From NCBI GenBank assembly GCA_001774395.1, contig MEZX01000002.1:160753-224752 (forward strand): a stretch of DNA of 64,000 nucleotides, read 5' to 3'. How positions within the stretch are numbered: position 1 is the stretch's first letter; every line of letters begins with the position of its first letter. Of the stretch, positions 6,740 to 56,737 are shown piece after piece. A program made the translations under genes and the position numbers. Origin of the DNA: Candidatus Berkelbacteria bacterium RIFCSPLOWO2_01_FULL_50_28. Its GTDB lineage: Bacteria; Patescibacteriota; UBA1384; 2-12-FULL-50-11. The notes under the pieces were generated by a model. That model was not told the origin of the DNA and made no database searches. It worked only from the letters and a program-made list of their open reading frames with translations.

Positions 6740-7030
6740 ATGCAACTGCAACCACTTTCCGACCGCTTGGTCGTTAAACCGCTCGATGCGGAAACCGTAT
6801 CGAAATCCGGTATCGTCATTCCCGACACCGCCAAAGAGAAGCCCCAAGAGGGCGAAGTTATTGCTGTCGGACCGGGCCGAGTCGATAAAGACGGCCAGAG
6901 AATTGAGATGGAAGTTAAAAAGGGAGATAAGGTTCTCTTTGGCAAGTATGCCGGAGATGAATTTAAGCTTGATGGAGTTGAATACAAGATTATTAGAGAA
7001 GATGAAGTACTGGGCATCCTGAAAGGATGA
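6740..7030 (+). CDS. groES: Co-chaperonin GroES (10 kDa chaperonin)
   Basis: MQLQPLSDRLVVKPLDAETVSKSGIVIPDTAKEKPQEGEVIAVGPG... is the canonical GroES sequence. AAAGGAGG lies 6 nt upstream of the ATG. The track ORF starts earlier at 6713, but that start has no SD. Confidence 0.95.
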   Translation: MQLQPLSDRLVVKPLDAETVSKSGIVIPDTAKEKPQEGEVIAVGPGRVDKDGQRIEMEVKKGDKVLFGKYAGDEFKLDGVEYKIIREDEVLGILKG

Positions 7031-8842
<1,812 letters not shown>

Positions 8843-8867
8843 GCATCGGCTCACTAGAACGAGAGAA

Positions 8868-8887
8868 GGGCCTAGCGGCCCTTTTTT
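8868..8887 (+). terminator. Intrinsic terminator of groEL (GGGCC-tagc-GGCCC + TTTTTT)
   Basis: A perfect 5-bp GC stem followed by six T residues, 25 nt after the stop codon. Confidence 0.65.
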
Positions 8888-8951
8888 CAAACCCAATTTT
8901 CGTGGGGAGGAGGGGCTTAATTCCGAGGCAGCCCCTACCTCCCCACACCCC

Positions 8952-9033
8952 ATACCCTGCACGGTTCCCACAGGGGTGAGGAGAAAATTCGCCTCCCTTC
9001 CGGAAGGTTCGCGGAGCGAATTGGCAAATTTTG
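8952..9033. repeat. About 82-bp structured palindromic element, copy 1 (copy 2 at 56607-56690, about 85% identical)
   Basis: ATACCCTGCACGGTTCCCACAGGGG...GAAAATTCGCCTCCCTTCCGGAAGGTTCGCGGAGCGAATTGGCAAATTTTG. The inner CCTTCCGGAAGG is a perfect palindrome nested in an AATTCGC/GCGAATT stem. Confidence 0.7.
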
Positions 9034-9048
9034 ATTTATTATTTCCCC

Positions 9049-9062
9049 GCCAAAAGAAAACG
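9049..9062 (+). promoter_or_regulatory. Islet motif copy 1: GCCAAAAGAAAACG (core of TTAACTTCCCGCCAAAAGAAAACGGCTCC)
   Basis: ttccccgccaaaagaaaacgccc lies about 80 nt upstream of the ORF at 9130. Confidence 0.55.
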
Positions 9063-9129
9063 CCCATACCTGGATTTTTACTGCCGCTTCTGATATTATT
9101 CAACAAAATCTTTCCTGAGGAGGAAAAGG

Positions 9130-9672
9130 ATGGAAGGAACGTACATTCACGAGTTTTGGGCTGTCACTGGGTCGTGGTCGCTCTATCACGTGACCGATGA
9201 GTTAAATGATCTTGGATTTCCCAATGTGGAGAAAGTGGGTAGCGTTGGGGTAAGCAAGCTGGAGGTAGGTGCTCGTCTCAAGAACGGCCGGCTCGTTGGC
9301 ATCACCGATTCCGGATTAACGCTCTTTAACCCGGGAAGGAGATCGAATTTTGCCAGTGAGGTTAACGTTCTCCACTGGGGCGGGACGACAACACCTTTTG
9401 TCGGCCTCTTTCTTGACGAAGAGACGGCTCGAGAGTGCCTCAACCTCAATATCATTGGACCTATCTTTGAAGACGAATTCACGAAATGTGCTGGCGAAGT
9501 TGTCAGGGGGATTGCGCAAGGCCATCTTGTTTTCCGACTCGATCCGGCAGTCTGCAAACGTTTCGGATTGAAAGCACTTGAGGTCTGCCCCAGCTGCACT
9601 TGGGCGGGTCTAGACGTTCACAAACACACACTAGAGTGCCACCCTGAAGTGGCCATCGATCGCCGCAAGTGA
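9130..9672 (+). CDS. Hypothetical protein, 180 aa, with a C-terminal Cys/His cluster (CPSCTWAGLDVHKHTLECH)
   Basis: ORF with GAGGAGG 7 nt upstream; no recognisable domain. Confidence 0.5.
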   Translation: MEGTYIHEFWAVTGSWSLYHVTDELNDLGFPNVEKVGSVGVSKLEVGARLKNGRLVGITDSGLTLFNPGRRSNFASEVNVLHWGGTTTPFVGLFLDEETARECLNLNIIGPIFEDEFTKCAGEVVRGIAQGHLVFRLDPAVCKRFGLKALEVCPSCTWAGLDVHKHTLECHPEVAIDRRK

Positions 9673-9695: not shown

Positions 9696-9721
9696 CCCGC
9701 CTGAAAAGGCGGGCGACTTTT
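9696..9721 (+). terminator. Intrinsic terminator (GCCCGCC-tgaaaag-GGCGGGC + gaCTTTTT), immediately followed by islet motif copy 2 (9723-9741)
   Basis: A perfect 7-bp stem plus a T tract 24 nt after the stop. The motif gccaaaagaaaacggctcc follows directly. Confidence 0.65.
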
Positions 9722-9766
9722 TGCCAAAAGAAAACGGCTCCGCTGTGTTTTTGCTACTATTGAACA

Positions 9767-10153: not shown

Positions 10154-10209
10154 CTAGGCTAGTAGGGTTAGGGGAGGGTTCTCTTTCAATCTGAAGATTC
10201 ACTAAAACC

Positions 10210-10223
10210 GCCAAAAGAAAACG
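10210..10223 (+). promoter_or_regulatory. Islet motif copy 3 (aaaaccGCCAAAAGAAAACGactcc), followed by TTGACT-17-TAGAGT
   Basis: The motif and then a sigma70-like promoter lie upstream of the lipoprotein gene. Confidence 0.55.
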
Positions 10224-10295
10224 ACTCCGGGAAAGTCTTGACTTTACCTGAGCAAAGAGGTAGAGTATCAATACTTTGCGAACAGGAGGGTTTGT

Positions 10296-10596: not shown

Positions 10597-10659
10597 AGAC
10601 CCCATCAAGTCACCGCCCGGAAAAGCTTTCAAACTTTCCGGGCGGTTTTTTAACTTCCC

Positions 10660-10673
10660 GCCAAAAGAAAACG
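10660..10673 (+). promoter_or_regulatory. Islet motif copy 4 (tttttTAACTTCCCGCCAAAAGAAAACGGCTCC), directly after the terminator at 10615-10650
   Basis: A CCCGGAAAG...CTTTCCGGGCGG hairpin with TTTTTT, then the motif, about 70 nt upstream of the NTase gene. Confidence 0.6.
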
Positions 10674-10745
10674 GCTCCTTCTGTATTTATTTACTGGTTT
10701 AGGCTAAAGTACTTCTAACGCACATTAGTGCTACAGGAGAACAAG

Positions 10746-11687
10746 ATGTCCAGATTTTTGCCGTATGAGCTCATTGAGCGGCGTTTCCGGACATCACCGG
10801 AAATGCTGCAAGAATTAGCTGACCGGGTCATGACCCACCCACCGTTCCGAGATGGAACCGCTGTAGTCTTCGGTTCTGTTGCTTGGGGAACACAAACCTG
10901 GCGTAGCGATCTAGATATTGCCATCAACAGCCCGGAGGACGGCCGTGGTTCATTAAGGTATCACTACCCGTATGACTACCACGATGCTTCGGAAGCAGTG
11001 AGAGTGGAAGTCGAAAACGTTTTTAGCCAGAGTCGTGGAAACGTTATCCAGTTCCTCCTTGTTGAAGTGCTTGGGAGCCAAATGGGAGTTGGTAACTATG
11101 ACCATCCGAGAATTTCGCCGTCAACATCTGACCATTTCAAACTATTGGCGAAGGTAAAAGGTGGTCCGTGGTCGAAGTTTAACCGCCGTATCAAGCTGAT
11201 CGGGCGGCGTGATCGAAAGGACGATGTCGTTAAGTACGCTGGCACTATTGCCCGGGTTGCCACCGGCTTCTTTCAGGATGTAAAGGAGGGGCATCGGGTT
11301 AACGTCTTTGACGCTCGCTCGCTTCAGGCCCTGGAAAACTTCCCGAAACAGCTAACAAGGAAACTCCTTGGTCTGTATGAGGCATTGCCGTGCCCAGACA
11401 CGTTCGACAACATCATGCAGACTCTCTCCGAGACGAAGCAAGGTTGGGCACGTCAGCTGTTAGAGCTCTATCAACCGTTCTTTGATATCCACAACTCGTA
11501 CACGAAACTAGTTGATGACATCTTCGACGGCTCAGTAGTGCTCGATGAAGCTGAGTACAACCGGCGATTGGTAAACTACCTCCGACCTATGCCCTTCGCG
11601 CAAGTGGGAGTAACCCTAGGAGAGCTATTCCCTGACTGTTCGTACTGGAAACGAGGCGTCGACCAGCTTCGGTACACCAGGACTTGA
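10746..11687 (+). CDS. Pol-beta-superfamily nucleotidyltransferase-domain protein (313 aa) with an uncharacterised C-terminal helical region
   Basis: VVFGSVAWGTQTWRSDLDIAI matches the hG[GS]x9-13[DE]h[DE]h NTase signature. The ATG at 10746 lies 5 nt after AGGAGA. The track start is a GTG at 10728. Confidence 0.65.
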   Translation: MSRFLPYELIERRFRTSPEMLQELADRVMTHPPFRDGTAVVFGSVAWGTQTWRSDLDIAINSPEDGRGSLRYHYPYDYHDASEAVRVEVENVFSQSRGNVIQFLLVEVLGSQMGVGNYDHPRISPSTSDHFKLLAKVKGGPWSKFNRRIKLIGRRDRKDDVVKYAGTIARVATGFFQDVKEGHRVNVFDARSLQALENFPKQLTRKLLGLYEALPCPDTFDNIMQTLSETKQGWARQLLELYQPFFDIHNSYTKLVDDIFDGSVVLDEAEYNRRLVNYLRPMPFAQVGVTLGELFPDCSYWKRGVDQLRYTRT

Positions 11688-11701
11688 TACGAACGACTAT
11701 G

Positions 11702-11728
11702 GCCTGTCTGAGAATGACAGGCTCTTTT
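11702..11728 (+). terminator. Intrinsic terminator (GCCTGTC-tgagaat-GACAGGC + tcTTTTT), followed by islet motif copy 5 (11738-11751)
   Basis: Stem plus T tract 15 nt after the NTase stop; then TTAACTTCCCGCCAAAAGAAAAAGAGCC. Confidence 0.65.
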
Positions 11729-11838
11729 TAACTTCCCGCCAAAAGAAAAAGAGCCTAACGGCCTTTTTCATACCCCAGACCACTTGACTCTGTCTTCTTG
11801 GTCTGGTAACATGTTGCTGATCGGTACTGGAGGACAGA

Positions 11839-13111: not shown

Positions 13112-13117
13112 CTTCCT

Positions 13118-13131
13118 GCCAGAAGAAAACA
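13118..13131 (+). promoter_or_regulatory. Islet motif copy 6 (variant: aacttcctGCCAGAAGAAAACAgc), in the 23-nt gap between convergent genes
   Basis: Sequence as shown. Confidence 0.45.
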
Positions 13132-13134
13132 GCT

Positions 13135-13899
13135 TTACTTCGTTGTGAGCGTATTCCAGACACCTTTGCAGAATTCGCGTAAGTTATGAGCCATCAACGG
13201 GTCGTGAATTTCAATCAGGTAGTGCGGCGAGCGATTGGTAACGACCATAATAACGTAGTCGCCAACAATCCAAGTGGTAGCGGTGAATTGTTTTACTGAA
13301 GCCCATGGGCGAATCTCTCGTTGTGGGTGCTGGGTAACTACCTTCTCAATGTCGGCTTCATTCGAAAGAAGTTTTGCATATACTTCCTTTGCTGAGGGCT
13401 GTTTCCAAAATACCTCGATCCAATCGAGATAGTTTTCTACAAAAGTAGGGTCCTGGTAGCCCCACCATGTACTATCGACAGTCTTAGCGCTTTCGTTCCA
13501 CGTTGGCGTTTGTTGGAAGAAGAAGCGCGAGATGTCTTCTTGGGTGATGAACTGAATTTTGGGGACTGGGTATTGGGTGGAGCCGGCTTCTTTATTCAGG
13601 GCCTCAATCAGTGGCTGGAGAAGCTTCTTTCTTTCCTCGACTTGGCGAAGTTGGTTGTCGAGGATGGTCGTGAGATTCTTTGGTGCAATTGCAGTTAAGC
13701 GAGCAACCTTTTGGCTTAAATCCTCGGCAATGAGGCCGCGTGTAACTAGTTCCTTGGCAGCGGAGTAGACAGTAGTCCGTTTTATGCCGGATAGATTAGC
13801 TACTTCGGTGTGGGAGACGATCCCTGCTTTCAACACCGTCAAGTAAACTTCGGCCTCAGTGTCGTTGATGCCGAGTATCTTGAGCTGTTCGTTGTTCAT
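13135..13899 (-). CDS. TrmB-family transcriptional regulator (254 aa)
   Basis: N-terminal wHTH: LGINDTEAEVYLTVLKAG..SHTEVANLSGIKRTTVYSAAKELVTRGLI. The promoter TTGACT-17-TAAACT ends 6 nt before the ATG, so the mRNA is near-leaderless. Confidence 0.8.
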   Translation of the reverse strand: MNNEQLKILGINDTEAEVYLTVLKAGIVSHTEVANLSGIKRTTVYSAAKELVTRGLIAEDLSQKVARLTAIAPKNLTTILDNQLRQVEERKKLLQPLIEALNKEAGSTQYPVPKIQFITQEDISRFFFQQTPTWNESAKTVDSTWWGYQDPTFVENYLDWIEVFWKQPSAKEVYAKLLSNEADIEKVVTQHPQREIRPWASVKQFTATTWIVGDYVIMVVTNRSPHYLIEIHDPLMAHNLREFCKGVWNTLTTK

Positions 13900-15182: not shown

Positions 15183-15358
15183 TTAATTGCGACGAAAGGT
15201 GATGAAGGAGCAATACGAGCTTGCGACTATTTCCCACCAAAAGAAAACGGTTTTACCTCGCCGTAGCTTGGCGAAGGCGGGCCCCACCAGATTGAATCCC
15301 TATCGGCTTGGGTGTAGAATCTACCCATACTGCGATTACTTCGCAGAGGAGACAGCGA

Positions 15359-28800: not shown

Positions 28801-30964
28801 CCAAGGGCCGAATACCGATTCTGGATACTATATTCAGAATATCCGTTCGTCGTACTTTGCTAATGTCTTCACAAGCTCCGTTGCGGCCGAGAACCCGGGG
28901 ATGGTCAAAGACTTGGATTACACCGATCCGCGGACTGAACAGCACTATGTAGCGTGGGATGAGACTAAAAACTGGACTTTGAAACTCGACACGACGGGGC
29001 AGGAGAGTCTATCCAGCGGCCAACTTGTGCCAGGCGCCCAGATTATTATTGAGCGCCAGAGCTTGGTTGCTGACGGAGCTCAGCCGCGCGGTCGTGAAGT
29101 TTTCCACGGTTACATCGTCAGTAACTTTGGCGGCTCTTATGACAGCACCAAGATAGTGGTGCGCCACAACCCGTCTTACGCCGACGACAAAGGTCTGCTC
29201 GGAGATTCAGCCGCTTCTAAAATCTCTATCTATTCCTATCTGCCAACGACCGCCCCGATCCGTAAACAGAGCGATTCGAACTGGCTAACCGCCGCGTGGG
29301 ACGGGACAACGAAGAGTTTCACTGTTAGCTCAAGCGACATCAACCTTAACGAAATCCCACCAGTTGGAGCTCTGATTCAATCCTGGAAAAACCCCAACAG
29401 CAGTGCCACGATCGATGCGACGCTCTTTGTGGTGAAGGGCCGTACTTACAGCTACAACCTCGGGGCGCATCAGTTCCGATTCGATGTGGATACCATCAAG
29501 CTCTCCACGCCTCTCCCAATTGCCTTCGGTAGCAACCAGGTGGTCGGAGATGCTAATAGTGCCCGGGTTATGTCGCTTGGTGATCAAAATATGCCTTGGG
29601 ACAGCTGGGCTGCACCGGACTGGGCGACAGACGCTTCTGCCAATAATCGCTGGGTTATCCGTCGTTCTGCCACGGGAAACCCGGGTTACGCGCCAGGTCC
29701 GCGCCAAGCAGCCGCTCTAGGGTCGTATTTCGATGGCACAAATTCGCAACTCTATATGGCTGGGGCTAGCTTCGGTCCGACGTCGACAGTTTGGAAAAAA
29801 TCCAACGCTGGCAAGACTACTTATACTAGCGACACTGCCTGGTCGTTTCTCAAGACATCGCCGAACAACGACAACGGTTTACCCAGTTTGTGGGGCTCCT
29901 CGATGATTGTTTACCGGTTCAATAGCCAAACAAAAGCGGTTTATTTCAACGGTAAGTTGAAGTACGACAACGGCCGTAACGATTACGGTCGCACCGTTGG
30001 GGCTCGTATCTTGGGGCGGCCGGACTTGAATCGCTGGGGAACCGAATCCAACGGCGGTTACCAGAACAGTGACAATACTTTTTATCTGGACGACACTAGC
30101 TCAACGCTTGATTCGGCCGGGTTTGTTAGTAGTATTTACAACAACTTCCCCACAACCGCTCCAACATCGGTCAAAGATAGTTTTCGCCTCAAGGGATACG
30201 GAATTACGCCAACATCGCAAGGCGGTTGGAGCACCGGCAAAGCGGTCTGCCCGTACTTGGGTCAGAAATGCGACGGCGGTAACGATTACAGCCCGCTTTT
30301 GGGCAGCCTGGGAACGCTCGGCCGCAGCTCCAGTAACAGCAGCGCCTACGGCGGCTACGGTTGGGGCTCGAGTCGAGCGGTTCTGAACCCTGGTTCGGCA
30401 TTCTTGAGCCAAGGTGGCAACGCGAGCGCGATTCTCTCCGGGCCAACATTCTCTGGCAACATCACCAACGGTCGTTGGGAGCAGGACGGTTACGCACCGT
30501 ATCTCTGTGACTCGCAAGTCGGCTGCGGCAATTACTATCAATCGAACTACGGCTCGCTGGCAACTAATTTCCAGAGCGATAAGACGATAATGTTTGCTGG
30601 TTACACTAAACTGATCGGCGGCGGTAAGGGCGGAGCGATTCTGGTCACGCCAGCCGGCGTCGGCACAGGGTTTCTAACCAAATCCGGCATACTTGGTGGC
30701 GCGAGTGATCGTTGGTACTCGTACTGCGCCGCCAGCGACACTACTGTTGATGGCAGCGATAACTACACCTGTAACACCAAAGCAACGCGCTATTTGCCCT
30801 GGTTGCCGGACATCGAAGATATGCTTTTCCTGATGAACGCCGCGGTAAAGTTGGCCTCGGCCGACAGCTACAAAGTCACCGGTTACTACGGCAACGCCCG
30901 TCGGGCCTATATTGTCACTTCCGTTACCGGCGAAGATGCGAAGGTTCAGGAAATAACGCCGTAA
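25862..30964 (+). CDS. Giant pilus-associated protein (1700 aa) with a PilX-like N-terminal TM segment; Gly/Thr/Asn-rich, beta-rich. A putative tip adhesin by analogy to PilY1
   Basis: MTTKGSSGSVLLLTVMVLAVLTTTTFGAIAV; 4-nt overlap with the preceding pseudopilin; no catalytic motifs seen. Confidence 0.8.
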   Translation: MTTKGSSGSVLLLTVMVLAVLTTTTFGAIAVRFDQLAATDKLTNSAVAKLAADSGLAQLRDKLINNQPVSQAYSYNIETAQENQIATTAGYRPNPRSSYATYEPAKTSLPRCIAAAVLDPWVNSGKYLSKDVASPTLIFYYANIVNDTPLGILPANANLSVNDKKIPISDVTSMGHFYNPFAPLNATQDSPSYWTIKLGGPDDQFLTQKASNNVDSLFRGLDVLYSYYLPRLTDSGIAAGGSQTGLDRIDSADLTGLFEDTIRNNNFKVWLDASISDTYLYQYGLGDLFVANSQYRIKWMQPSLWNDLPEADVAVPYKSDDLGASTVSWTKKGLPLLTPGADIGGWGVSILRGASSFSFVRLSSASNGVAFSPGQTIDGFVYGGLDGLRLNSRLSLQLFTKVGGHVSLKSRAQDQGKLYGATVTQIGSVTAQNIAIKLKLSSNDYETPTLSYSSAYPTGSMIGTIALLAAPQFSTNKSLSSATVKADGDGINANITVQSNGNCVAVAGSFTACPAVGDLIGLSKSGQDPLWGMVETVSFTGTNLGSFTIDKLRRGPKPTRHQAVTYYTANSNPRIAYFGGAIDMNDYDGGYASESAELWIYDPEGDSWSYPNNPGGTPPGPRAGASMVYDNVNGRLVVVGGYYHEAVTPDANPAFDCEISQQSCLYTNRPHFRIAKRIVNDVYAYNIAGNSWEKMNYTFTGAAQKIENGVTYTARVVSTLANRSGLEGWRQTTLMENASPQTININGAATNIVVKPSAAGLAIGDELYLSGKLTVSAASFTAWGRITGINYAANSITVTVRGYKKAAPTDPNTVTLSDLSMQVLSRLGNGNGQTCTGVVTTSYSCNFSNITGFAVGDQVVLERYVGSENLTDVLSGFISYTSGTSAYFVADERDSAILDFADQSLGRPSGGTAVAFPVGRYGATLGQDPTAGDTDKALLYQGASKNFAANLRFNDVWQAKFNAGTGTGSIAWTLFNLQNPQGPNTDSGYYIQNIRSSYFANVFTSSVAAENPGMVKDLDYTDPRTEQHYVAWDETKNWTLKLDTTGQESLSSGQLVPGAQIIIERQSLVADGAQPRGREVFHGYIVSNFGGSYDSTKIVVRHNPSYADDKGLLGDSAASKISIYSYLPTTAPIRKQSDSNWLTAAWDGTTKSFTVSSSDINLNEIPPVGALIQSWKNPNSSATIDATLFVVKGRTYSYNLGAHQFRFDVDTIKLSTPLPIAFGSNQVVGDANSARVMSLGDQNMPWDSWAAPDWATDASANNRWVIRRSATGNPGYAPGPRQAAALGSYFDGTNSQLYMAGASFGPTSTVWKKSNAGKTTYTSDTAWSFLKTSPNNDNGLPSLWGSSMIVYRFNSQTKAVYFNGKLKYDNGRNDYGRTVGARILGRPDLNRWGTESNGGYQNSDNTFYLDDTSSTLDSAGFVSSIYNNFPTTAPTSVKDSFRLKGYGITPTSQGGWSTGKAVCPYLGQKCDGGNDYSPLLGSLGTLGRSSSNSSAYGGYGWGSSRAVLNPGSAFLSQGGNASAILSGPTFSGNITNGRWEQDGYAPYLCDSQVGCGNYYQSNYGSLATNFQSDKTIMFAGYTKLIGGGKGGAILVTPAGVGTGFLTKSGILGGASDRWYSYCAASDTTVDGSDNYTCNTKATRYLPWLPDIEDMLFLMNAAVKLASADSYKVTGYYGNARRAYIVTSVTGEDAKVQEITP

Positions 30965-31190
30965 GTGAAGGACTGCGCCCTCAAACCAATTTTTGTGGGG
31001 AGGAGGCTCCCACACCTTTTTTGCAGAGGACAAGGGGCCTACTTGCGAAGCGGCCCCCTATCCTCTGCACTCCAACCCCTGCCCGCTTCACCTTAGCGGC
31101 GGACAAGGTGAAAAACCGCTCACGGACCTGCTGTGGGTCAGGCTCGCGGTTTTTCGGTATTGATAAGCGGGATACACTGTCGGTTTTCGA

Positions 31191-32075
31191 TTATTTGTAT
31201 TCGTGCTGGGCGATTTCGTAGTGAAGTTTTATGCGGTCGTCCCAACTGCGGCCGCGTAGGTCAACAGAGTGCGGTACTTCTTTTATTTCGCCCTTGCTGT
31301 CACGGCGAATAATGCCAACATTGTAGTAAACCATCGGTGTTTCCTCGGCAGTTTTCTTGACGTAATCGGGATGTTTCTCGCCGTAGACGCCGCGCAAGAA
31401 ATCTTCTGTGCTCATGGCCGGGAAAACGTTCGTGTACACGACCGATGGATTGCCGTCGATATACTTGCCGATGTAGCGCGCAAATGCAGGGTCCTTATCG
31501 TCGCCTAGGCACATTTGGTTGAAGAAGATAACTCCACCATCAGCCAGGTGGTGGTTGGCGATCTGGAGCTGATTTTTGAACTCATCCTGACCATCACTGC
31601 CGCCGCGAGCGTGTTGGGGAATTTTGTCGCGAATCGCTTCCGGATAAAGATGATACGGCGGGTAAAGGCCGATGACCTTGGCTGATTTGGGTGGAAAGCT
31701 ATCTTCGCTATAGAGCTCATGCTTCACCTCGAATCGAACGTCATTGAGCTTGGCATTTTCTTGGGCTTGCTCAATTGCTCGGGCACTTTTATCAAGCGCT
31801 ATAACCTTGCTGCCAGGGAAATGTTTGCTAACGAGAATTGAAAACACGCCGCTACCGCAGCCGATATCCAAGAAGTCGATCGAGCCGTTAGAGTCTTGCA
31901 GCGCTTTGGCAATATAAGGCTTAGAAAACTCCCAAGTGAACGGCTGCTCCTCGTAAAACACCGCCATCACGTTATCGCTCTGGTCGGTGCGTTTGCGGTT
32001 AATTGGATCAACTTTTAGTTTAATGCCGGCAAACTCGACATTTTCATCGAACATATTGGGGTTACTAATTGCCAT
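31191..32075 (-). CDS. SAM-dependent methyltransferase (294 aa) with motif I LDIGCGSGVF and a PPY motif
   Basis: FLDIGCGSGVFSILV and GLYPPYH. The [NDS]PP[YF] motif is typical of amino-group (N6-A/N5-Gln-type) methyltransferases. Confidence 0.7.
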   Translation of the reverse strand: MAISNPNMFDENVEFAGIKLKVDPINRKRTDQSDNVMAVFYEEQPFTWEFSKPYIAKALQDSNGSIDFLDIGCGSGVFSILVSKHFPGSKVIALDKSARAIEQAQENAKLNDVRFEVKHELYSEDSFPPKSAKVIGLYPPYHLYPEAIRDKIPQHARGGSDGQDEFKNQLQIANHHLADGGVIFFNQMCLGDDKDPAFARYIGKYIDGNPSVVYTNVFPAMSTEDFLRGVYGEKHPDYVKKTAEETPMVYYNVGIIRRDSKGEIKEVPHSVDLRGRSWDDRIKLHYEIAQHEYK

Positions 32076-33233: not shown

Positions 33234-33369
33234 GGGGGCGAACGGGTTCGACAGAGACCCAAGTGCGTGGTTAGGGCGTGGTAGCCCAACTCGGAAAAAC
33301 GGCTCAAGAAAGACCGAGCATCACGTAGCAAGTCTTTGGAACTGGGTTCGATTCCCAGCGCCTCCACCA
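33234..33369 (+). ncRNA. ssrA: Miniature tmRNA (ssrA)-like RNA: canonical tmRNA 5' and 3' tRNA-like halves only about 136 nt apart; no identifiable tag reading frame or pseudoknots
   Basis: 5' GGGGGCGAACGGGUUCGACAGAGACCCAAGUGCG resembles B. subtilis GGGGACGUUACGGAUUCGACAGGGAU. 3' GGAACUGGGUUCGAUUCCCAGCGCCUCCACCA resembles GGACGUGGGUUCGACUCCCACCGUCUCCACCA. A G3-U70 pair is present and CCA is encoded. Confidence 0.5.
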
Positions 33370-33548
33370 GATTCGTTTCAACCGGTCGCCGACAAATAAA
33401 GGCGGCCAGCGGCTACCCCCTCCGGGTTTAGGGGTAGCAGTGGGCGGTTATGTAACCCACTGCCTAGGATCACCGCCAAGGTGATCTGACGACTTAGGGA
33501 ACCAAAACTTGGCGAAAGAGAGTCCGTATACTCTCAGGTTCCCGCCTC

Positions 33549-33610
33549 GGATCCGGCTCGAGGCCCGTGCTCGAGCCTGAAATTGAGGGAATTGTCCCTT
33601 GCACTTTACA
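33549..33610 (+). promoter_or_regulatory. Cassette-upstream element A (hairpin GGCTCGAGG-cccgtg-CTCGAGCC + CTGAAATTGAGGGAATTGTCCCTTGCACTTTACA)
   Basis: Member of a 5-copy family (A-E) confined to 33.5-35.6 kb. Confidence 0.6.
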
Positions 33611-33734
33611 AATAGAAAGTTGATAGAGCTTCGGCAAAACTATCCGTTAGTCAGACGACGTTAAGTCCGGCCCTCAGTCGAACGAGTAGCAATACTTGGA
33701 CGAGGATGTATTTCAAGGGAACAGTGAAAGTAAT

Positions 33735-34319
33735 ATGAAAAACCTGACAACTGCCTTGGCCTTCGCCGTTGCCTCGATCGTTTCTGCTCAGACCTCGTTG
33801 GTTTGGGTGGACAGCGCCAAGGGGGGTTCGCCCTCCGTAACAGCTGCCTTCTTCGCGAAGGACGGTTGGGAGGTCTGGGCGTTCGGGGCGAATAACCCCA
33901 AAACGCTCGACCTGGAACTGGGGCGCCTCTTTCCTTGGGGAAAGAAGGTGCTGGTTGGCGGGTACGTTGCCGTTTGGCCGGATTCAAACAGGACCTTCGG
34001 GATACCGTTTGTGATGGTCAACGACAAGGTGCTTGGAGGCCACTTGTGCCTCAAGCTAGGCTGTTACCTGCCGTTAAACGGTGGGCCAACTATCCTTTTC
34101 TCCGATGAGAGTTCGCTCTTGTGGGAGGCCAAAAAAGGGTTAAGTTGGGGGCCGATTCTCTCCTACGTTCAGGTCGACGGTGGTAAGCCAATCGCAAGAT
34201 TGGGACTGTCACTGCGCCTGACGAAGGGGGATGAAACCCTGGAGCTTAGCTGCCAACCGGTTTACTTATCTGGGGACGGGGAAACCCGCTTCCGGATCGG
34301 TATTACCCACCGGTTCTAG
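33735..34319 (+). CDS. Secreted beta-rich protein (about 194 aa), signal peptide, C-terminal ...GITHRF (OMP-like, resembles the 14421 product)
   Basis: MKNLTTALAFAVASIVSAQTS; internal start of track ORF 33696. Confidence 0.55.
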   Translation: MKNLTTALAFAVASIVSAQTSLVWVDSAKGGSPSVTAAFFAKDGWEVWAFGANNPKTLDLELGRLFPWGKKVLVGGYVAVWPDSNRTFGIPFVMVNDKVLGGHLCLKLGCYLPLNGGPTILFSDESSLLWEAKKGLSWGPILSYVQVDGGKPIARLGLSLRLTKGDETLELSCQPVYLSGDGETRFRIGITHRF

Positions 34320-34461
34320 CTCGCTGACCGAGTACGGTTGGGCGCTGAATCGCGCCTTGGAGCTGCATAAAGGAGCGGCAGATCGGGCAGAAACAAGACG
34401 CAAAGAAGTGTGATGGAGGTTCCCTATTGTTAGCCTCCTGCGTCGCCCAGTAATGTTTCAG

Positions 34462-34524
34462 TTTTCATCCACGGCCGGATTCATCCGGCCTGAAATTGAG
34501 AGCTGAAAGGTTCTCGCACATTTT
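34462..34524 (+). promoter_or_regulatory. Cassette-upstream element B (hairpin GGCCGGAT-tc-ATCCGGCC + CTGAAATTGAGAGCTGAAAGGTTCTCGCACATTTT)
   Basis: About 85% identical to element E. Confidence 0.6.
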
Positions 34525-34557
34525 ACAGGGTAGCGACCAACGCCAGGAGAAAAATAC

Positions 34558-34782
34558 ATGACAAGCATCCTCGCCATCCTCGTCGCGATCATTCTGGCAG
34601 TTGGGAACACAGTGCTGATGGGCTCGGCCCTGATAGCGCTCCAGCATGGCCGGTTTGGTCTTCTGCTCGTTGCGCTGATGGTGCTGTTCGTCTCCGGCGA
34701 ACTGATCATCAAGCCCCTGTTTCGACTTGTGGGCGAACAGGGAGTGCGAAAGCACTTGGCTAAGCGCAACAAGGGAGAGTAG
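34558..34782 (+). CDS. Small 2-TM membrane protein (74 aa)
   Basis: MTSILAILVAIILAVGNTVLMGSALIALQHGRFGLLLVALMVLFVSG...; SD CCAGGAGA. Confidence 0.55.
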   Translation: MTSILAILVAIILAVGNTVLMGSALIALQHGRFGLLLVALMVLFVSGELIIKPLFRLVGEQGVRKHLAKRNKGE

Positions 34783-34822
34783 CCCTCGTATTACTCACGT
34801 TTCAGCAATTGAAACGCCCTTT

Positions 34823-34886
34823 GATCCGGCTCGAGGCCTGTGCTCGAGCCTGAAACTAAGGGCTGAAAAGCTCTAATTTGCACATT
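34823..34886 (+). promoter_or_regulatory. Cassette-upstream element C (hairpin GGCTCGAGG-cctgtg-CTCGAGCC + CTGAAACTAAGGGCTGAAAAGCTCTAATTTGCACATT)
   Basis: About 80% identical to element A. Confidence 0.6.
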
Positions 34887-34898
34887 CCAGGAGGCAAG

Positions 34899-35114
34899 AT
34901 GCGTGTAATACTTAAGGTTTACCATGACTGCGGCAGTGATATCAGTACAGTCGAGTTTGATCTCGACGATCTGGTCAGAACACTCAACGCTGGCGGGACC
35001 TTCGAGGTCAAGGCAATGTGCGACGATTTGCACAGTAGGAGACTGGGCCTCCGATATAGCTTGGGACACGAGAATCATACGGGCAAATTTGTTGTTGTGC
35101 CCAGGAAAAGCTGA
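34899..35114 (+). CDS. Small hypothetical protein (71 aa; MRVILKVYHDCGSDISTVEFDLDDLVRTLNAGG...)
   Basis: AGGAGG lies 4 nt upstream of the ATG at 34899. The track ORF starts at 34878 without an SD. Confidence 0.5.
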   Translation: MRVILKVYHDCGSDISTVEFDLDDLVRTLNAGGTFEVKAMCDDLHSRRLGLRYSLGHENHTGKFVVVPRKS

Positions 35115-35127
35115 ACCACAACCTTCA

Positions 35128-35180
35128 TATCCGGCTTGAGCCGTCTCGAGCCCGAAATTGAGAGCTGAAAAAGCTAAGGA
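35128..35180 (+). promoter_or_regulatory. Cassette-upstream element D (hairpin GGCTTGAGCC-gt-CTCGAGCC + CGAAATTGAGAGCTGAAAAAGC, running straight into the SD)
   Basis: Truncated variant lacking the TTGCACAT block. Confidence 0.55.
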
Positions 35181-35190
35181 GAACATTAAA

Positions 35191-35478
35191 ATGGCGACAA
35201 TCATTGCCAACGAACAGTTGACCAAGACTCTAGAACCGCTTCTTGAAGATGTCGATGCGATCTATGTGGATACCCACTCATCGACGGGTCAGATTGACGA
35301 GGAACGAATAAGCCAGGCTGCAGAGCTGGCTCGCAGGGGAAAACGAGTTGTCCTTTTCGGATGGTTCGCCGAGGCCGAGGTGGGTAGTAAAATCGCCCCG
35401 TGTATGACCTACCAGAACGCGGTCTATGCCCGTTTACCGCTTTCGATCGACCAGATGCGGGAACTGGGCAAAGGATGA
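35191..35478 (+). CDS. Small hypothetical protein (95 aa; MATIIANEQLTKTLEPLLEDVDAIYVDTHSSTGQ...)
   Basis: AAGGAGA lies 8 nt upstream of the ATG. Confidence 0.5.
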   Translation: MATIIANEQLTKTLEPLLEDVDAIYVDTHSSTGQIDEERISQAAELARRGKRVVLFGWFAEAEVGSKIAPCMTYQNAVYARLPLSIDQMRELGKG

Positions 35479-35489
35479 TGTCGTCTCAA

Positions 35490-35550
35490 CTTTCATCCAC
35501 GGCCGGATCTTTCCGGCCTGAAAATGAGAGCTGAAAAGTTCTTGCACATC
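35490..35550 (+). promoter_or_regulatory. Cassette-upstream element E (hairpin GGCCGGA-tctt-TCCGGCC + CTGAAAATGAGAGCTGAAAAGTTCTTGCACATCC)
   Basis: Family member upstream of the REC-zinc-finger gene. Confidence 0.6.
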
Positions 35551-37267: not shown

Positions 37268-37393
37268 TATTGGTTAATTTCCAATTTACAAGTTTCAATT
37301 TTCACTGAATTTTCAATGTTCCAATTTTCAAACTGGTTATTGATTAATTGAGAATTTATTGAAAACTGAGAATTGATCATTGTAAATTTTTGT
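37268..37393. repeat. AT-rich CAATTTW/GAAAATTG repeat array (family member 2)
   Basis: tccaatttacaagtttcaattttcactgaattttcaatgttccaattttcaaactgg...gaaaactgagaattg. Confidence 0.55.
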
Positions 37394-46505: not shown

Positions 46506-47021
46506 ATGGAAGAAGAATACTCGTTTAAAGGACAGCGTTCGGATGAGCAAGTGGTGCTGGTTACCAAGCAACATCTGTGGCTCTTGTCGCCGTTAGTTCT
46601 TGTTTGGGCGGTGATAATTGGGTTGATTCTGCTCTTGGTTTGGTGGCAAGGGGCGTCGCGAGTGAGTTCGTATATAACTTTTGGCATCGCCGTGGTTGGG
46701 CTAATTTACAGCTATTACTTTTGGTTTATCTGGAACAACTCCGATTATATTGTGACCAACCAGCGGGTGATCAAAATGGATCAAATTAGCTTCTTCAACC
46801 GGGTTATTTCTGAAGCCGAAATTGACCGAATCCAAGAGATTTCAACCGAGGTGGCGGGGCCGATTCACACCTTACTCAAATTCGGCACGGTCCGTATTAA
46901 AACAGCATCGGACTCCGGCAAAATGGACCTGGACGACTTGACCGACCCGTACTCGGTTCAGCAAGTTATTGTGAGTATCCAGAAAAAAACCCACCCCAAC
47001 CGGCCCCCGCGGATTATTTAG
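46506..47021 (+). CDS. Membrane protein with a bacterial PH (bPH_2/DUF304, YdbS/YdbT-like) domain
   Basis: Two TM helices, then YIVTNQRVIKMDQ... Confidence 0.6.
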   Translation: MEEEYSFKGQRSDEQVVLVTKQHLWLLSPLVLVWAVIIGLILLLVWWQGASRVSSYITFGIAVVGLIYSYYFWFIWNNSDYIVTNQRVIKMDQISFFNRVISEAEIDRIQEISTEVAGPIHTLLKFGTVRIKTASDSGKMDLDDLTDPYSVQQVIVSIQKKTHPNRPPRII

Positions 47022-51720: not shown

Positions 51721-51804
51721 GCGATGTTTTTAGCAAAGTGGGTAGGCATATTTGTTAGTGATCCTGTTCGTGACAGGACTGGCGAAAGCAAACATAATGG
51801 CAGT

Positions 51805-55070: not shown

Positions 55071-56585
55071 ATGGCTGAGGAAATACGAGTTAGAATTGCC
55101 CCTTCGCCAACCGGTAAGTTTCACATCGGCACGGCTCGCACAGCATTGTTCAACTATCTGTTTGCCAAAAAACATGGCGGGCAGTTCATTGTGCGCATTG
55201 AAGACACCGACCGTGAGCGTAATGACGATGTTTACGTCAAAGACATTATCGATGGCCTGCTCTGGCTTGGCCTGGGATTCGACGAGGGCCCGCCCTTCCA
55301 TGGGGTCAGGGCGACTCCGAGCAAGGTCGAGGAGCCGGAAGTTGGTGGGCAGTTCGGCCCGTACTTTCAATCGGAAAGGTTGGATCTCTACAAACCGTAC
55401 GTCGAACAGCTGTTAAAGGAACATCTGGCCTATCGCTGTTACTGCACCGCCGAAGAGCTGACGAAAGTACGCGAGGCCGATCAGAAAAAGGGTTTGGCGC
55501 CAAAGTATTCTGGTCGCTGCCGAGATCTTACTGCCTCCGAGATCGATAAGTTTGAACGGGAGGGCAGAGCGTCGGTGATTCGCTTTAGGACTGAGCCAAG
55601 AAAGGTGAAGTTTACCGACTTGATTCGCGATGAGGTGGAATTTGATGCCGAACTTTTTGGTGATTTCGTGATCGTTCGTAGCGACGGAGTGCCACTATTT
55701 AATTTGTCGAATGTTATTGATGATTCCTTGATGAAAATTAGTCACGTCTTACGCGGCGAGGAGCATCTTGCCAACGCCGCCAAACAGATTATGTTGGCAG
55801 AGGCGCTCCGGATTGCAGTGCCAGAGTTCGGTCATCTGCCACTCATTTTTAACCCCGACCGAACAAAGATGAGCAAGCGACGTGACCCGGTGTCGGTGAG
55901 CGATGATTTTCGGGCCAGGGGCTATCTGCCGGAGGCGATGGTTAATTTCATGGCTCTGCTCGGGTGGTCAGGCGAAAACGATCGAGAGATTTATACGTTG
56001 TCCGAATTGGTAGAAGAGTTTGAGCTGGAGCGCGTCGGTAAAAGTCCGTCCATTTTTGATATCGAAAAATTGAAGTGGATGAACGGCTACTACATTCGAA
56101 ACGCCTCGATCGGCGAGGTAGCGTCGGAGGCTCAGAACTTCATCACTGATAAAAAATTGCTCCAGGCAACGCTCGATAAACCAGATTTTTATCTGGAGAC
56201 AGTCGTCCTGGTACGAGATCGGCTCAAGACCTACGCTGAGATCGAAGAAGCAATTGAGCTTTTCTACACGGCACCAAAGTATGACGCTGAGTTGCTGGTG
56301 GCCAAAAAATCTACTGCCAAAAATGCCCAGCTAGCACTGGTTGTCGCCGCGCAAACATTAAAGCAAATTGAGACTTTTTCGCTTGATGAACTGGAGCCGT
56401 CGTTGCGCGGGGCAGCGGCTAGTAACCAGCTGACCGATGGCGAACTGCTTTGGGCGGTGCGAGCGGCGCTATCTGGCAAAGCCGCGTCTCCTGGATGTTT
56501 TGAGTTGCTGGGGATTTTGAATAAAGACGAGTCTTTGAAGCGGATTGCTACGGCGATCAAGAAGCTCAAAGCTTTGAAAAGCTAA
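55071..56585 (+). CDS. gltX: Glutamyl-tRNA synthetase
   Basis: HIGT (PSPTGKFHIGTAR) and KMSKR motifs; SD CCGGAGG. Confidence 0.95.
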   Translation: MAEEIRVRIAPSPTGKFHIGTARTALFNYLFAKKHGGQFIVRIEDTDRERNDDVYVKDIIDGLLWLGLGFDEGPPFHGVRATPSKVEEPEVGGQFGPYFQSERLDLYKPYVEQLLKEHLAYRCYCTAEELTKVREADQKKGLAPKYSGRCRDLTASEIDKFEREGRASVIRFRTEPRKVKFTDLIRDEVEFDAELFGDFVIVRSDGVPLFNLSNVIDDSLMKISHVLRGEEHLANAAKQIMLAEALRIAVPEFGHLPLIFNPDRTKMSKRRDPVSVSDDFRARGYLPEAMVNFMALLGWSGENDREIYTLSELVEEFELERVGKSPSIFDIEKLKWMNGYYIRNASIGEVASEAQNFITDKKLLQATLDKPDFYLETVVLVRDRLKTYAEIEEAIELFYTAPKYDAELLVAKKSTAKNAQLALVVAAQTLKQIETFSLDELEPSLRGAAASNQLTDGELLWAVRAALSGKAASPGCFELLGILNKDESLKRIATAIKKLKALKS

Positions 56586-56606
56586 GGACAAATTTCTAGC
56601 AGGGCC

Positions 56607-56690
56607 ATACCCTGCACGGTTCTCACAGAGGTGTTGTGAAAATTCGCCTCCCTTCCGGAAGGTTCGCGGAGCGAATCGGCGAATTTTCGG
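56607..56690. repeat. About 82-bp structured palindromic element, copy 2
   Basis: ATACCCTGCACGGTTCTCACAGAGGTG...GAAAATTCGCCTCCCTTCCGGAAGGTTCGCGGAGCGAATCGGCGAATTTTCGG. Confidence 0.7.
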
Positions 56691-56737
56691 TATCTATGGT
56701 GACTCGAGAGGTGAGTTTTGATAAACTATCGAAGTAT

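What the first reader, a model, noticed from the sequence alone, without database searches (positions are those of the whole stretch)
8889..9033. Structured palindromic repeat families downstream of highly expressed operons (groEL, pilus operon, gltX)
The about 82-bp element downstream of groEL (8952-9033) recurs at 85% identity downstream of gltX (56607-56690). It contains a perfect palindrome CCTTCCGGAAGG nested inside an AATTCGC...GCGAATT stem and is preceded by a CCCTG...CAGGG hairpin. A second short family, CAAACC(C)AATTTT(C/T)GTGGGGAGGAGG, occurs after the groEL terminator (8889-8915) and after the giant pilus gene (30990-31015). Each is followed by long GC hairpins; 31024-31071 is an 18-bp stem. 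These are REP/MITE-like or small-RNA-like elements and are not in any annotation class I know for such genomes
Basis: seen in the sequence. Interest (0 to 1): 0.55.

Follow-up and report, generated by a model that had tools for sequence, protein, structure and literature searches.

The report
Modular hairpin repeat family between genes

Summary
An 83-nt repeat lies at 8950-9032 and 56605-56687 (92% identical, 38-nt exact core, none expected by chance). The short 5' motif is at 8889-8915 and 30990-31015. Both are pieces of one composite element of about 150 nt. Its order is: T-run; P1, a 14-15-bp GC hairpin with a conserved loop; a conserved C-rich linker; P2, a mini-hairpin; P3, a long hairpin closed by an A-run and a T-run, in types A, B and C; and a tail TTTTCGGTATTGAT.

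The window holds three copies. Another region of the same Berkelbacteria genome holds five more, so there are 8 loci in about 125 kb sampled. A sister species has copies, one at a non-orthologous site. More distant relatives have none. Stems covary (10 of 22 pairs change on both sides; 0/500 shuffles reach the score) and modules reassort between copies. Flanking genes are unrelated. Orientation relative to neighbouring genes is 5 sense to 4 antisense. There is no Rfam match, no terminal inverted repeats and no promoter-like site.

At the gltX site the element is 98% identical between species, while third codon positions are 63% identical.

Best reading: a new lineage-specific family of composite interspersed repeats (BIME/BOX/NIME-like) whose P3 acts as a bidirectional terminator. 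A multi-copy small-RNA role is not excluded.

The parts
8868..8887 (+). groEL intrinsic terminator (GGGCC-TAGC-GGCCC followed by TTTTTT), directly upstream of copy A1. It is either a flanking feature or the optional 'M0' hairpin.
   Evidence: Sequence; RNAfold. A short hairpin followed by a T-run also precedes copies B1, C1, D1 and G1.
8888..9050 (+). Copy A1, full-length composite element downstream of groEL. The 5' motif CAAACCCAATTTTC is at 8888-8901.
   Evidence: Covariance model R1, 155 bits, E=1e-56, covering model positions 1-162; nhmmer.
8902..8946 (+). A1 P1 hairpin: GTGGGGAGG-a-GGGGCT, a 12-nt loop, then AGCCCC-ta-CCTCCCCAC.
   Evidence: Eight different stem versions across copies are essentially all Watson-Crick paired; the only exceptions are one A-C mismatch each in E1 and A2b and one G-U in E1.
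8947..8966 (+). A1 C-rich linker (ACCCCATACCCTGCACGGTT), single-stranded in all folds. It is the most sequence-conserved unpaired stretch.
   Evidence: Invariant columns C56, C60, C61, G64, C65, C67, G68, T71 in the 9-copy alignment.
8966..8976 (+). A1 P2 mini-hairpin (T)CCC-ACA-GGG(G).
   Evidence: CCC/GGG changes to CTC/GAG in A2, D1 and G1 (column pair 90-101 is CG in 5 copies and UA in 5).
8984..9032 (+). A1 P3 type A: outer stem AAAATTCGCC/GGCAAATTTT (one C-A mismatch) enclosing the CCTTCCGGAAGG and GTTCGC-GGA-GCGAAT sub-hairpins.
   Evidence: Type A recurs at 56639-56687, at L074 G1 and at L033.
30982..31022 (+). Truncated 5' fragment of an a-type element. It consists of the motif CAAACCAATTTTT and a P1a hairpin that has lost its apex (GTGGGGAG..CTCCCAC), followed by TTTTTT. 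It works as a terminator-like hairpin after the 1700-aa gene.
   Evidence: Sequence comparison with 8889-8949; terminator-like hit.
31010..31172 (+). Copy B1, full-length, between convergent genes. P1b 31023-31068; linker 31069-31088; P2 31089-31110; P3 type B 31111-31154 (AAAAACCGC/GCGGTTTTT); tail CGGTATTGAT 31155-31164.
   Evidence: R1 124.6 bits, E=6e-45; perfect 9-bp inverted repeat; fold. Identical in four other assemblies.
56585..56705 (+). Copy A2, which lacks P1, between the gltX stop codon (56583-56585) and tRNA-Gln (56738). Linker 56605-56621; P2 56621-56631; P3 type A 56639-56687 (perfect 10-bp outer stem); tail CGGTAT 56688-56693.
   Evidence: R1 82 bits, E=7e-29. The orthologous site in the sister species L033 carries P1b, a b-type linker and the same P2-P3A, 56/57 identical.

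Best explanation
This is one lineage-specific family of composite small interspersed repeats in a Candidatus Berkelbacteria (CPR/Patescibacteria) genome.

Anatomy. Each full copy is about 150-190 nt, non-coding and strictly intergenic, with a fixed order of modules:
- a T-run;
- P1, a 14-15-bp GC-rich hairpin with a conserved A/TA internal loop and a conserved apical loop TAnTTsCGArG;
- a conserved C-rich linker;
- P2, a 3-6-bp hairpin;
- P3, a long hairpin whose base is an A-run paired to a T-run, with interchangeable interiors (types A, B, C);
- a tail TTTTCGGTATTGAT.

Shown:
- many dispersed copies with unrelated flanks;
- stems kept by compensatory changes;
- modules reassorted, deleted or nested between copies;
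- presence or absence differing between sister species.

Inferred, step 1 (spread). Copies spread and are homogenised by copy-and-paste and/or recombination between copies, in the manner of BIME, BOX and NIME elements. The mobilising activity is unknown.

Inferred, step 2 (local effect). Once in place, P3 has the geometry of a bidirectional intrinsic terminator, and P1 is a stable 3' hairpin. Together they end transcription of flanking genes in either orientation and may protect the upstream mRNA from 3' exonucleases. At gltX and rnj, P3 is the only terminator-like structure after the stop codon.
For: Family and copy number.
- The 38-nt exact core recurs with 0 matches expected by chance.
- nhmmer and covariance model R1 find A1, B1 and A2 in the window and G1, H1, D1, E1 and C1 in L074/L058. 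That is 8 loci in about 125 kb.
- Flanking proteins are not paralogous, so the repeated unit is the element itself.

Structure.
- RNAalifold recovers P1, P2 and P3, with 10 of 22 pairs changed on both sides.
- 91.7-91.9% of cells pair, against about 81% in shuffles. The covariation score is 0.34-0.35 against 0.16-0.17, with 0/500 shuffles as high. Slid controls pair at 41-69%.
- The curated stems contain 187 Watson-Crick pairs, 8 G-U, 3 A-C and 1 other.
- There are eight distinct P1 stem versions and four P3 outer stems, essentially all paired.

Mosaic behaviour.
- All four combinations of P1/linker type (a, b) with P3 type (A, B) occur.
- A2 lacks P1. B1 carries a truncated extra 5' piece. 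G1 and H1 carry extra or interleaved 3' halves.

Dynamics.
- The sister-species contig L032 has a copy beside dnaE, where the window has none.
- Relatives at 67% GltX identity or 78% RNase J identity have none.
- One assembly joins groEL to the ftsK-side locus through the 68 nt shared by A1 and C1.

Terminator role.
- In 7 of 8 copies, P3 is an A-run, a GC stem and a T-run.
- B1 and E1 sit between convergent genes.
- There is no other terminator between gltX and the element, or between rnj and E1.
- The 5:4 orientation fits a structure that works on both strands.

Known parallels. BIMEs act as transcriptional attenuators, and composite repeats affect the genes they are co-transcribed with (PMC3049150).
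Against: - No transposase, RAYT or other mobilising gene is seen next to any copy or in the gene tables of the sampled loci.
- There are no terminal inverted repeats.
- No empty-site/filled-site pair with clean boundaries was available, so mobility is inferred, not shown.
- The strong sequence conservation is more than a terminator needs. The linker and the P1 loop hold invariant positions. At the orthologous gltX site, P2-P3A is 56/57 identical although third codon positions are 63% identical.
- P3 interiors of 26-60 nt are unusual for intrinsic terminators, and copy D1 has no T-run.
- No expression or 3'-end data could be consulted.
- The genome-wide copy number is extrapolated from 20% or less of the genome and is uneven: 3 copies in 95 kb against 5 in 30 kb.
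Confidence: 0.5

Rival explanations
1. The copies are genes, or 3'-UTR-derived precursors, of a multi-copy family of small regulatory RNAs. P1 and P2 are scaffold hairpins. The conserved C-rich single-stranded linker is a seed that pairs with G-rich or Shine-Dalgarno-like targets, or binds a protein. P3 with its U-run is the terminator of the RNA itself.
For: - The architecture is that of a bacterial sRNA: hairpins, a conserved unpaired stretch and a terminal hairpin with a U-run.
- Sequence invariants concentrate in the linker and the P1 loop, while the stems covary.
- G-U pairs outnumber A-C pairs 8 to 3 on the strand given.
- Orientation independent of neighbouring genes (5:4) is what free-standing genes would show.
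- Conservation is 98% between species against 63% at third codon positions.
Against: - No sigma-70-like promoter lies in or just upstream of any of the three window copies. P1 starts 0-15 nt after a terminator hairpin and T-run, which leaves no room for a standard promoter.
- A density of about 1 per 16 kb is far above known sibling-sRNA families (own knowledge).
- Truncated, P1-less, nested and tandem partial copies are typical of repeats, not of genes.
- One strain carries an 8-nt deletion in P1 and the linker of D1.
- No Rfam family matches.
Confidence: 0.22
2. The elements act as double-stranded DNA sites for a sequence-specific protein (a regulator, a nucleoid or recombination protein, or a restriction-modification-related factor). 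The perfect palindromes (CCTTCCGGAAGG, TTCGC-GGA-GCGAA, AAAATTCGCC/GGCGAATTTT) would be the binding sites, and the 'hairpins' would be incidental.
For: - The stems are almost entirely Watson-Crick (187 of 199 pairs), as expected for DNA palindromes.
- Type A P3 is nearly invariant at four loci and across species.
- CGGA is invariant in all P3 types.
- Orientation is irrelevant (5:4).
- One contig is joined through the shared 68 nt, which might be recombination.
Against: - P1 and P3 outer stems change sequence freely while keeping complementarity: eight and four versions respectively. That argues for selection on pairing within one strand, not on a fixed double-stranded recognition sequence.
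- No candidate binding protein is consistently adjacent.
- The asymmetric C-rich linker is conserved, which a palindrome-binding dimer would not require.
- The odd contig is a single assembly against six or more with the normal arrangement, so it may be a chimera.
Confidence: 0.1
3. Nothing special: these are ordinary intrinsic terminators and GC hairpins at gene ends that look alike by chance, or through one local duplication.
For: Several parts do look like terminators, and most copies lie at gene 3' ends.
Against: - A 38-nt exact match has 0 expected occurrences.
- Full-length matches of 82-168 bits (E from 1e-29 to 1e-61) occur at 8 loci plus relatives.
- Loops and linker are conserved.
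- Flanking genes are unrelated.
- Four copies are antisense to both neighbours.
Confidence: 0.03

Closest known systems
BIMEs (bacterial interspersed mosaic elements built from REP/palindromic units) of enterobacteria
   Same: Both are extragenic and mostly at gene 3' ends or between co-directional genes. Both are mosaics of hairpin-forming modules and conserved linkers in set patterns. Their stems covary between subtypes. BIMEs are documented to attenuate transcription and stabilise upstream mRNA (PMC3049150 background; PMC2817692 abstract).
   Different: Here the modules are three different hairpins in one fixed order and orientation, not alternating copies of one 20-40-bp palindromic unit. 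The GTAG/CGTC tag is absent except in one copy. No RAYT gene was seen in the sampled loci. There is no sequence similarity, and the host is a CPR bacterium with a genome of 0.63 Mb or more.
BOX elements of Streptococcus pneumoniae (boxA-boxB(n)-boxC) and Neisseria NIMEs/Correia elements
   Same: These are composite repeats of under 200 bp with optional or variable modules and extensive secondary structure. They are restricted to a species and its closest relative, are found in both orientations, are transcribed with neighbours and are judged mainly parasitic (PMC3049150). The narrow distribution and the module loss, gain and reassortment seen here match that picture.
   Different: BOX and Correia elements have terminal inverted repeats resembling those of resident IS elements. 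None is detectable here. This element is GC-rich rather than AT-rich, and its 3' module is a terminator-shaped hairpin.
Bidirectional intrinsic (Rho-independent) terminators
   Same: P3 is an A-run, a GC-containing stem and a T-run. It lies between convergent genes (B1, E1) or directly after a stop codon (A2, E1) and folds equally well on both strands.
   Different: P3 has 26-60 nt of conserved interior with its own sub-hairpins, instead of a 3-8-nt loop. It is embedded in a larger conserved unit and is near-identical at distant loci and across species, which ordinary terminators are not.
Sibling small RNAs with C-rich seeds (for example the LhrC and RsaE types; named from my own knowledge, not tested here)
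   Same: Hairpins, a conserved unpaired C-rich stretch, a terminator hairpin, and several paralogous copies per genome.
   Different: No promoter is evident, the copy density is much higher, truncated and nested copies exist, and no expression data are available.

Membership tests
MITE (miniature inverted-repeat transposable element) | Terminal inverted repeats | tested here: not met
   The best local match between the 5' end and the reverse-complemented 3' end of 7 copies scores 6-8, within the shuffled range (median 6-7, 95th percentile 9-10).
MITE (miniature inverted-repeat transposable element) | Target-site duplication | tested here: inconclusive
   No clean empty-site/filled-site pair was available. 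The dnaE-side locus with a copy (L032) and without one (window 51611-51723) also differs in its neighbouring gene. T-runs at both ends belong to the element consensus.
MITE (miniature inverted-repeat transposable element) | AT-rich, highly base-paired, multiple dispersed copies | tested here: inconclusive
   The copies are base-paired and dispersed. They are not AT-rich: GC is 0.52-0.61 against 0.515 for the window.
REP / BIME | A 20-40-bp imperfect palindromic unit tagged by GTAG or CGTC at one end | tested here: not met
   P1 is 45-52 nt. a-type stems begin with GTGG, and only G1 begins with GTAG. b-type stems begin with GCAG or CCGA. The criterion is taken from PMC3733652 (abstract only).
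REP / BIME | Units in alternating orientation with set linkers | tested here: not met
   The modules P1, linker, P2, P3 are different sequences, always in the same order and orientation.
REP / BIME | Cognate RAYT (Y1 transposase) gene in the genome | not testable with these tools
   No PF01797 appears in the precomputed Pfam lists of the sampled loci, about 125 kb. The remaining 80% or so of the genome could not be read.
REP / BIME | Extragenic location, often at 3' ends of genes | tested here: met
   All 8 genomic copies and the 3 relatives' copies are intergenic. Five of 9 are downstream of and co-oriented with a gene.
Composite small interspersed repeat (BOX/NIME type) | Combination of distinct sub-sequences in a set pattern, with modules variably present; narrow taxonomic range | tested here: met
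   Module reassortment, loss and nesting. Copies are present in this species and a sister species, and absent from relatives at 67% GltX or 78% RNase J identity. The definition is from PMC3049150. There is no sequence homology to BOX itself; this is a class-level match only.
Intrinsic terminator | GC-rich stem with a short loop, followed by a U-run at a gene's 3' end | tested here: inconclusive
   Seven of 8 P3 hairpins have a stem and a T-run, and these are the only such structures after gltX and rnj. The loops are 26-60 nt, D1 lacks a T-run, and the consensus scan found a terminator-like site inside P3 only in B1 (31130-31150); it does not detect the full long-loop hairpins. Termination itself was not measured.
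Any Rfam 15 RNA family | Match at or above the gathering score | tested here: not met
   The whole window at gathering threshold gives only tRNAs and tmRNA. Permissive scans of 8840-9130 and 30960-31195 give only sub-threshold hairpin noise, at most 23.5 bits against gathering scores of 35-200.
Trans-acting small RNA gene | Own promoter and a discrete transcript | tested here: inconclusive
   No sigma-70-type site was found at the three window copies, but CPR promoters may differ. Expression is not testable with these tools.

The most novel reading that the evidence does not exclude
The element may be a functional, multi-copy structured RNA (or a single-strand-recognised mobile element) peculiar to one Berkelbacteria lineage. 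Its conserved P1 loop and C-rich linker would be recognised by a dedicated protein or RNA partner. That would mean either a new class of regulatory RNA in ultra-small CPR genomes, or a new hairpin-dependent mobilisation mechanism that needs neither terminal inverted repeats nor a REP-type tag. Either would explain why the sequence is 96-98% identical between species whose synonymous sites have diverged to about 63% identity.
Probability: 0.2. Interest if true: 0.65.

Novelty: new member of a known kind. Interest (0 to 1): 0.42.

Why it matters
CPR/Patescibacteria genomes are among the smallest and most streamlined known. To my knowledge, and in four literature searches, no interspersed repeat or small-RNA family has been described for them.

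A repeat of about 150 nt, present roughly once per 16 kb in the sampled part of the genome, would make up about 1% of the genome. It would supply the only terminator-like structures for some essential genes (gltX, rnj). It would also create identical stretches of 68 nt, long enough to mislead assemblers or to drive rearrangements; one contig is in fact joined through such a stretch.

The element's unusually strong conservation relative to neighbouring coding sequence makes it a concrete, testable candidate for a functional non-coding element in an uncultured lineage. The covariance model built here gives a way to annotate it.

Tried and rejected
- **Public collection scans.** I scanned genome contigs and metagenome contigs for the 18-mer CCATACCCTGCACGGTTC. 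Nearly all hits were chance matches in unrelated organisms. Only L028 (the same locus as A1) and L032 (sister species) were real.
- **Viral contigs.** I scanned with the type A and type B cores. There were no matches or only chance matches, so a phage origin is not supported.
- **Rfam.** Searches at gathering and permissive thresholds gave nothing.
- **Strain rearrangement at the element (contig L003/L060, groEL joined to the 71-aa gene).** Six or more other assemblies show ftsK upstream of that gene. The join runs through 68 nt shared by A1 and C1. This is a chimera or a rare recombinant, not solid evidence of rearrangement.
- **Segmental duplication.** Rejected, because flanking proteins share no similarity.
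- **Protein-coding reading.** Spurious ORFs (8816-9106 minus strand, 8826-9200 plus strand) cross A1. Gene callers ignore them, and the indels and compensatory changes do not fit a coding region.
- **tRNA-linked integration site (A2 lies 48 nt from tRNA-Gln).** Rejected, because the other copies are not near tRNAs and the repeat does not overlap the tRNA.
- **IS200/IS605 or omega-RNA-like ends, integron attC, dif/Xer sites.** Considered from memory. No associated genes are present, P3 ends in a terminator, and copy orientations are mixed within 12.5 kb. Not pursued further.
- **Strand assignment from G-U against A-C pairs.** Only 8 against 3, which is too few to decide.
- **Look-up of P0121.** This failed because the protein is not on record.

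Full report
**1. The observation**

An ungapped 83-nt repeat links 8950-9032 and 56605-56687 at 92% identity. Its 38-nt core is identical in both copies. No dinucleotide-preserving shuffle gave even one match with up to three mismatches. The short motif CAAACC(C)AATTTT(C/T)GTGGGGAGGAGG is present after groEL and after the 1700-aa gene. Each occurrence is followed by a long GC hairpin.

**2. Organism and data**

The window matches metagenome contigs and NCBI MAGs of Candidatus Berkelbacteria, a CPR/Patescibacteria lineage from Rifle groundwater. These include GCA_001776125.1 and proteins named 'RIFCSPLOWO2_01_FULL_50_28'. The longest contig is 629 kb.

I read about 95 kb around the window by hopping with exact-protein look-ups. 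I read a second region of about 30 kb of the same genome, spanning rpsT to recA, in the same way.

**3. One element, not two families**

A profile built from the first copies aligned 8887-9043 and 31010-31166 end to end. Covariance model R1 then did the same. The model scores are 155 bits for copy A1 and 125 bits for B1. Copy A2, which lacks its 5' third, scores 82 bits.

The common plan, from 5' to 3', is:
- a T-run;
- P1, a 14-15-bp GC hairpin with an A/TA internal loop and a conserved apical loop;
- a C-rich linker;
- P2, a 3-6-bp hairpin;
- GnGnAA;
- P3, a long hairpin whose base is an A-run paired with a T-run;
- a tail TTTTCGGTATTGAT.

At 30982-31022 that arm belongs to a truncated extra copy whose P1 has lost its apex. 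This remnant now forms a short terminator-like hairpin.

**4. Copy number and distribution**

The window holds exactly three copies.

The second region holds five copies within 12.5 kb:

| Copy | Position | Orientation relative to neighbours |
|---|---|---|
| G1 | between rpsT and a 91-aa gene | antisense to both |
| H1 | between a 180-aa gene and a DHH gene | antisense to both |
| D1 | between a 98-aa gene and rnj | antisense to both |
| E1 | after rnj | convergent with the next gene |
| C1 | after ftsK | sense |

That gives 8 loci in about 125 kb. No copies were found in the 12.7 kb left or the 18 kb right of the window.

A sister species is about 81% identical in gltX nucleotides and about 83% in dnaE. 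It has a copy after gltX (L033) and one beside dnaE (L032). The window has no copy at the dnaE site. Relatives at 67% GltX identity or 78% RNase J identity have none.

The proteins flanking the copies share no similarity with one another. The repeated unit is therefore the element alone.

Counting L032, five copies are co-oriented with and downstream of a gene. Four are antisense between tandem genes.

**5. Structure**

RNAalifold on a plain MAFFT alignment recovers P1, P2 and the P3 outer stem. Ten of 22 pairs change on both sides.

| Measure | MAFFT alignment, 9 sequences | Model-fitted alignment, 11 sequences |
|---|---|---|
| Cells paired | 91.7% | 91.9% |
| Cells paired in shuffles | 81.3% | 80.7% |
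| Covariation score | 0.341 | 0.348 |
| Covariation score in shuffles | 0.174 | 0.158 |
| Shuffles reaching the observed score | 0/500 | 0/500 |
| Cells paired in slid controls | 47-69% | 41-68% |

The model-fitted alignment leans towards the structure it was fitted to.

By hand I count eight different P1 stems and four different P3 outer stems. The P3 outer stems are AAAATTCGCC, AAAAACCGC, AAAACCGGC and AAGTTCGGC. Across the curated stems there are 187 Watson-Crick pairs, 8 G-U, 3 A-C and 1 other.

Both strands fold about equally well. The small G-U excess does not settle which strand matters, or whether the structure acts as RNA or DNA.

**6. Mosaic behaviour**

- P1/linker variants a and b combine freely with P3 types A and B. 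A1 is a+A, C1 and L032 are a+B, B1 is b+B, and L033 is b+A.
- E1 has a 60-nt type C interior.
- G1 carries a type A P3 followed by a second hairpin. That hairpin contains the 3' end of yet another copy. H1 has interleaved 3' halves.
- A2 lacks P1, whereas the orthologous site in the sister species keeps it.
- L066 shares an identical 215-aa protein with the reference strain. It has the same P3 as C1 but a very different P1-P2 half.
- One strain has an 8-nt deletion in D1. This is the only internal difference in 12.7 kb.
- One contig (L003/L060) joins groEL to the ftsK-side locus through the 68 nt that A1 and C1 share. Six or more other assemblies show the normal arrangement. The join is a chimera or a rare recombinant.

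**7. Conservation**

Between the window and L033, gltX is 84%, 84% and 63% identical at codon positions 1, 2 and 3. P2 plus type A P3 is 56/57 identical.

L032's copy is about 96% identical by my count to C1 over the element proper; the computed 150-nt comparison, which includes divergent flanking sequence, gives 89%. The two copies lie at different loci, and dnaE is 82.5% identical between the two organisms.

Invariant positions cluster in the P1 loop, the linker, the GnGnAA and a CGGA inside P3.

**8. What it is not**

- There is no Rfam match.
- There are no viral copies.
- There are no terminal inverted repeats above chance.
- The element is not AT-rich.
- The GTAG tag occurs in one stem version only, and there are no alternating palindromic units.
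- No RAYT or other transposase lies adjacent. The sampled gene tables show only a Xer-like integrase, a GIY-YIG gene and, in one strain, a DDE transposase, none of them next to a copy.
- No sigma-70-like promoter lies at the window copies.
- The element is not protein-coding. ORFs crossing it are ignored by gene callers, and indels and compensatory changes do not fit a coding region.

**9. Interpretation**

The best-supported reading has confidence of about 0.5. It is a new, lineage-restricted family of composite small interspersed repeats, of the kind exemplified by BIMEs, NIMEs and BOX elements (definitions in PMC3049150).

Dispersal to unrelated sites, module shuffling, truncated and nested copies, both orientations, and a narrow taxonomic range are all shown. 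The mode of spread is inferred. It could be transposition by an unknown enzyme or copy-and-recombine. No mobilising gene or target duplication was found.

The likely local effect is also inferred. P3 has the shape of a bidirectional intrinsic terminator. It is the only such structure after gltX and rnj, and it sits between convergent genes at B1 and E1. P1 is a stable hairpin that could block 3' exonucleases.

The main rival has confidence of about 0.22. It is a multi-copy small RNA whose C-rich linker is a seed or a protein-binding site. This would explain the sequence conservation better. It fits poorly with the lack of promoters, the copy density and the partial copies.

Two further readings are less likely. 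A double-stranded DNA binding-site reading has confidence of about 0.1. It conflicts with the free covariation of the stems. Chance resemblance among ordinary terminators is excluded.

**10. Limits**

- Only 20% or less of the genome could be read, and the density is uneven (3 copies in 95 kb against 5 in 30 kb).
- Only one sister species contributes, with short contigs.
- The 9-11 aligned sequences are paralogues, so the shuffling controls overstate independence.
- No transcript data were available.

Noticed in passing
window 9047-9067, 9721-9741, 10208-10228, 10658-10678, 11736-11756, 13116-13136, 15234-15254 (all + strand): The motif (A/T)ACTTCCCGCCAAAAGAAAACGGCTCC occurs seven times in 6 kb. 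Each copy sits in an intergenic gap about 60-90 nt upstream of a small hypothetical gene in the cluster that follows groEL. The first copy starts two bases after the end of element A1. It looks like a shared promoter or operator for a lineage-specific gene cluster that also holds TrmB, SET and methyltransferase genes.
   Followed up: partly
window 7028-7185 (between groES and groEL), 37282-37391, 51640-51690 (half copy), 54933-55050 (upstream of gltX): This is a second, AT-rich repeat family built on TTTACAATTTTCAATTTTCAGTGAAT ... AAAATTGAAAACTG..AATTGAAAATTGT. It has 22-26-nt terminal inverted arms that are about 80% complementary, so it is MITE-like. It fills the unusually long groES-groEL spacer, where a 47-aa 'gene' is called. 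It also lies upstream of gltX, so both genes carry the AT-rich repeat upstream and the GC-rich element downstream.
   Followed up: partly
window 33545-35549: A GC hairpin followed by GCCTGAAATTGAGAGCTGAAA recurs four or five times (repeat families D4, D7 and D13) between small genes downstream of the tmRNA region.
   Followed up: no
window 33234-33369 (+): The Rfam tmRNA match is only 136 nt long yet spans model positions 1-374 (65 bits). ARAGORN calls no tmRNA. It may be a reduced, permuted or two-piece tmRNA, or a partial hit.
   Followed up: no
window 47018-51610 (-): The DnaE (DNA polymerase III alpha) is 1530 aa and carries an intein (PF14890), with a weak Phage_endo_I match, according to precomputed Pfam hits.
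   Followed up: no
L003/L060 (ERZ4903072 k141_1049094) 11678-11836: This 142-kb contig joins the groEL locus to the ftsK-side locus (71-aa gene, recA) exactly within the 68 nt that copies A1 and C1 share. All other assemblies keep the two loci apart. It is a repeat-induced chimera or a rare recombinant.
   Followed up: partly
L059 about 3886 versus L058 3886-3893: An 8-nt deletion (ACCCCCAC on the element strand) in the 3' arm of P1 of copy D1 is the only internal difference between two otherwise 99.8%-identical strains over 12.7 kb. P1 can re-pair with the adjacent C-run.
   Followed up: partly
window 56719-56727, upstream of tRNA-Gln (56738): TGATAAACT resembles an extended -10 promoter and would give tRNA-Gln a leader of about 4 nt. 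If it is real, tRNA-Gln has its own promoter and the element's P3 can terminate gltX. The gltX-tRNA-Gln adjacency is conserved in a 67%-identity relative (L041) that lacks the element.
   Followed up: no
L074 6276-9964 versus L068 2515-4358: Between rpsT and the DHH gene, this genome has three extra small hypothetical genes (91, 109 and 180 aa) together with element copies G1 and H1. A relative at 78% RNase J identity has only a 270-nt spacer there.
   Followed up: no
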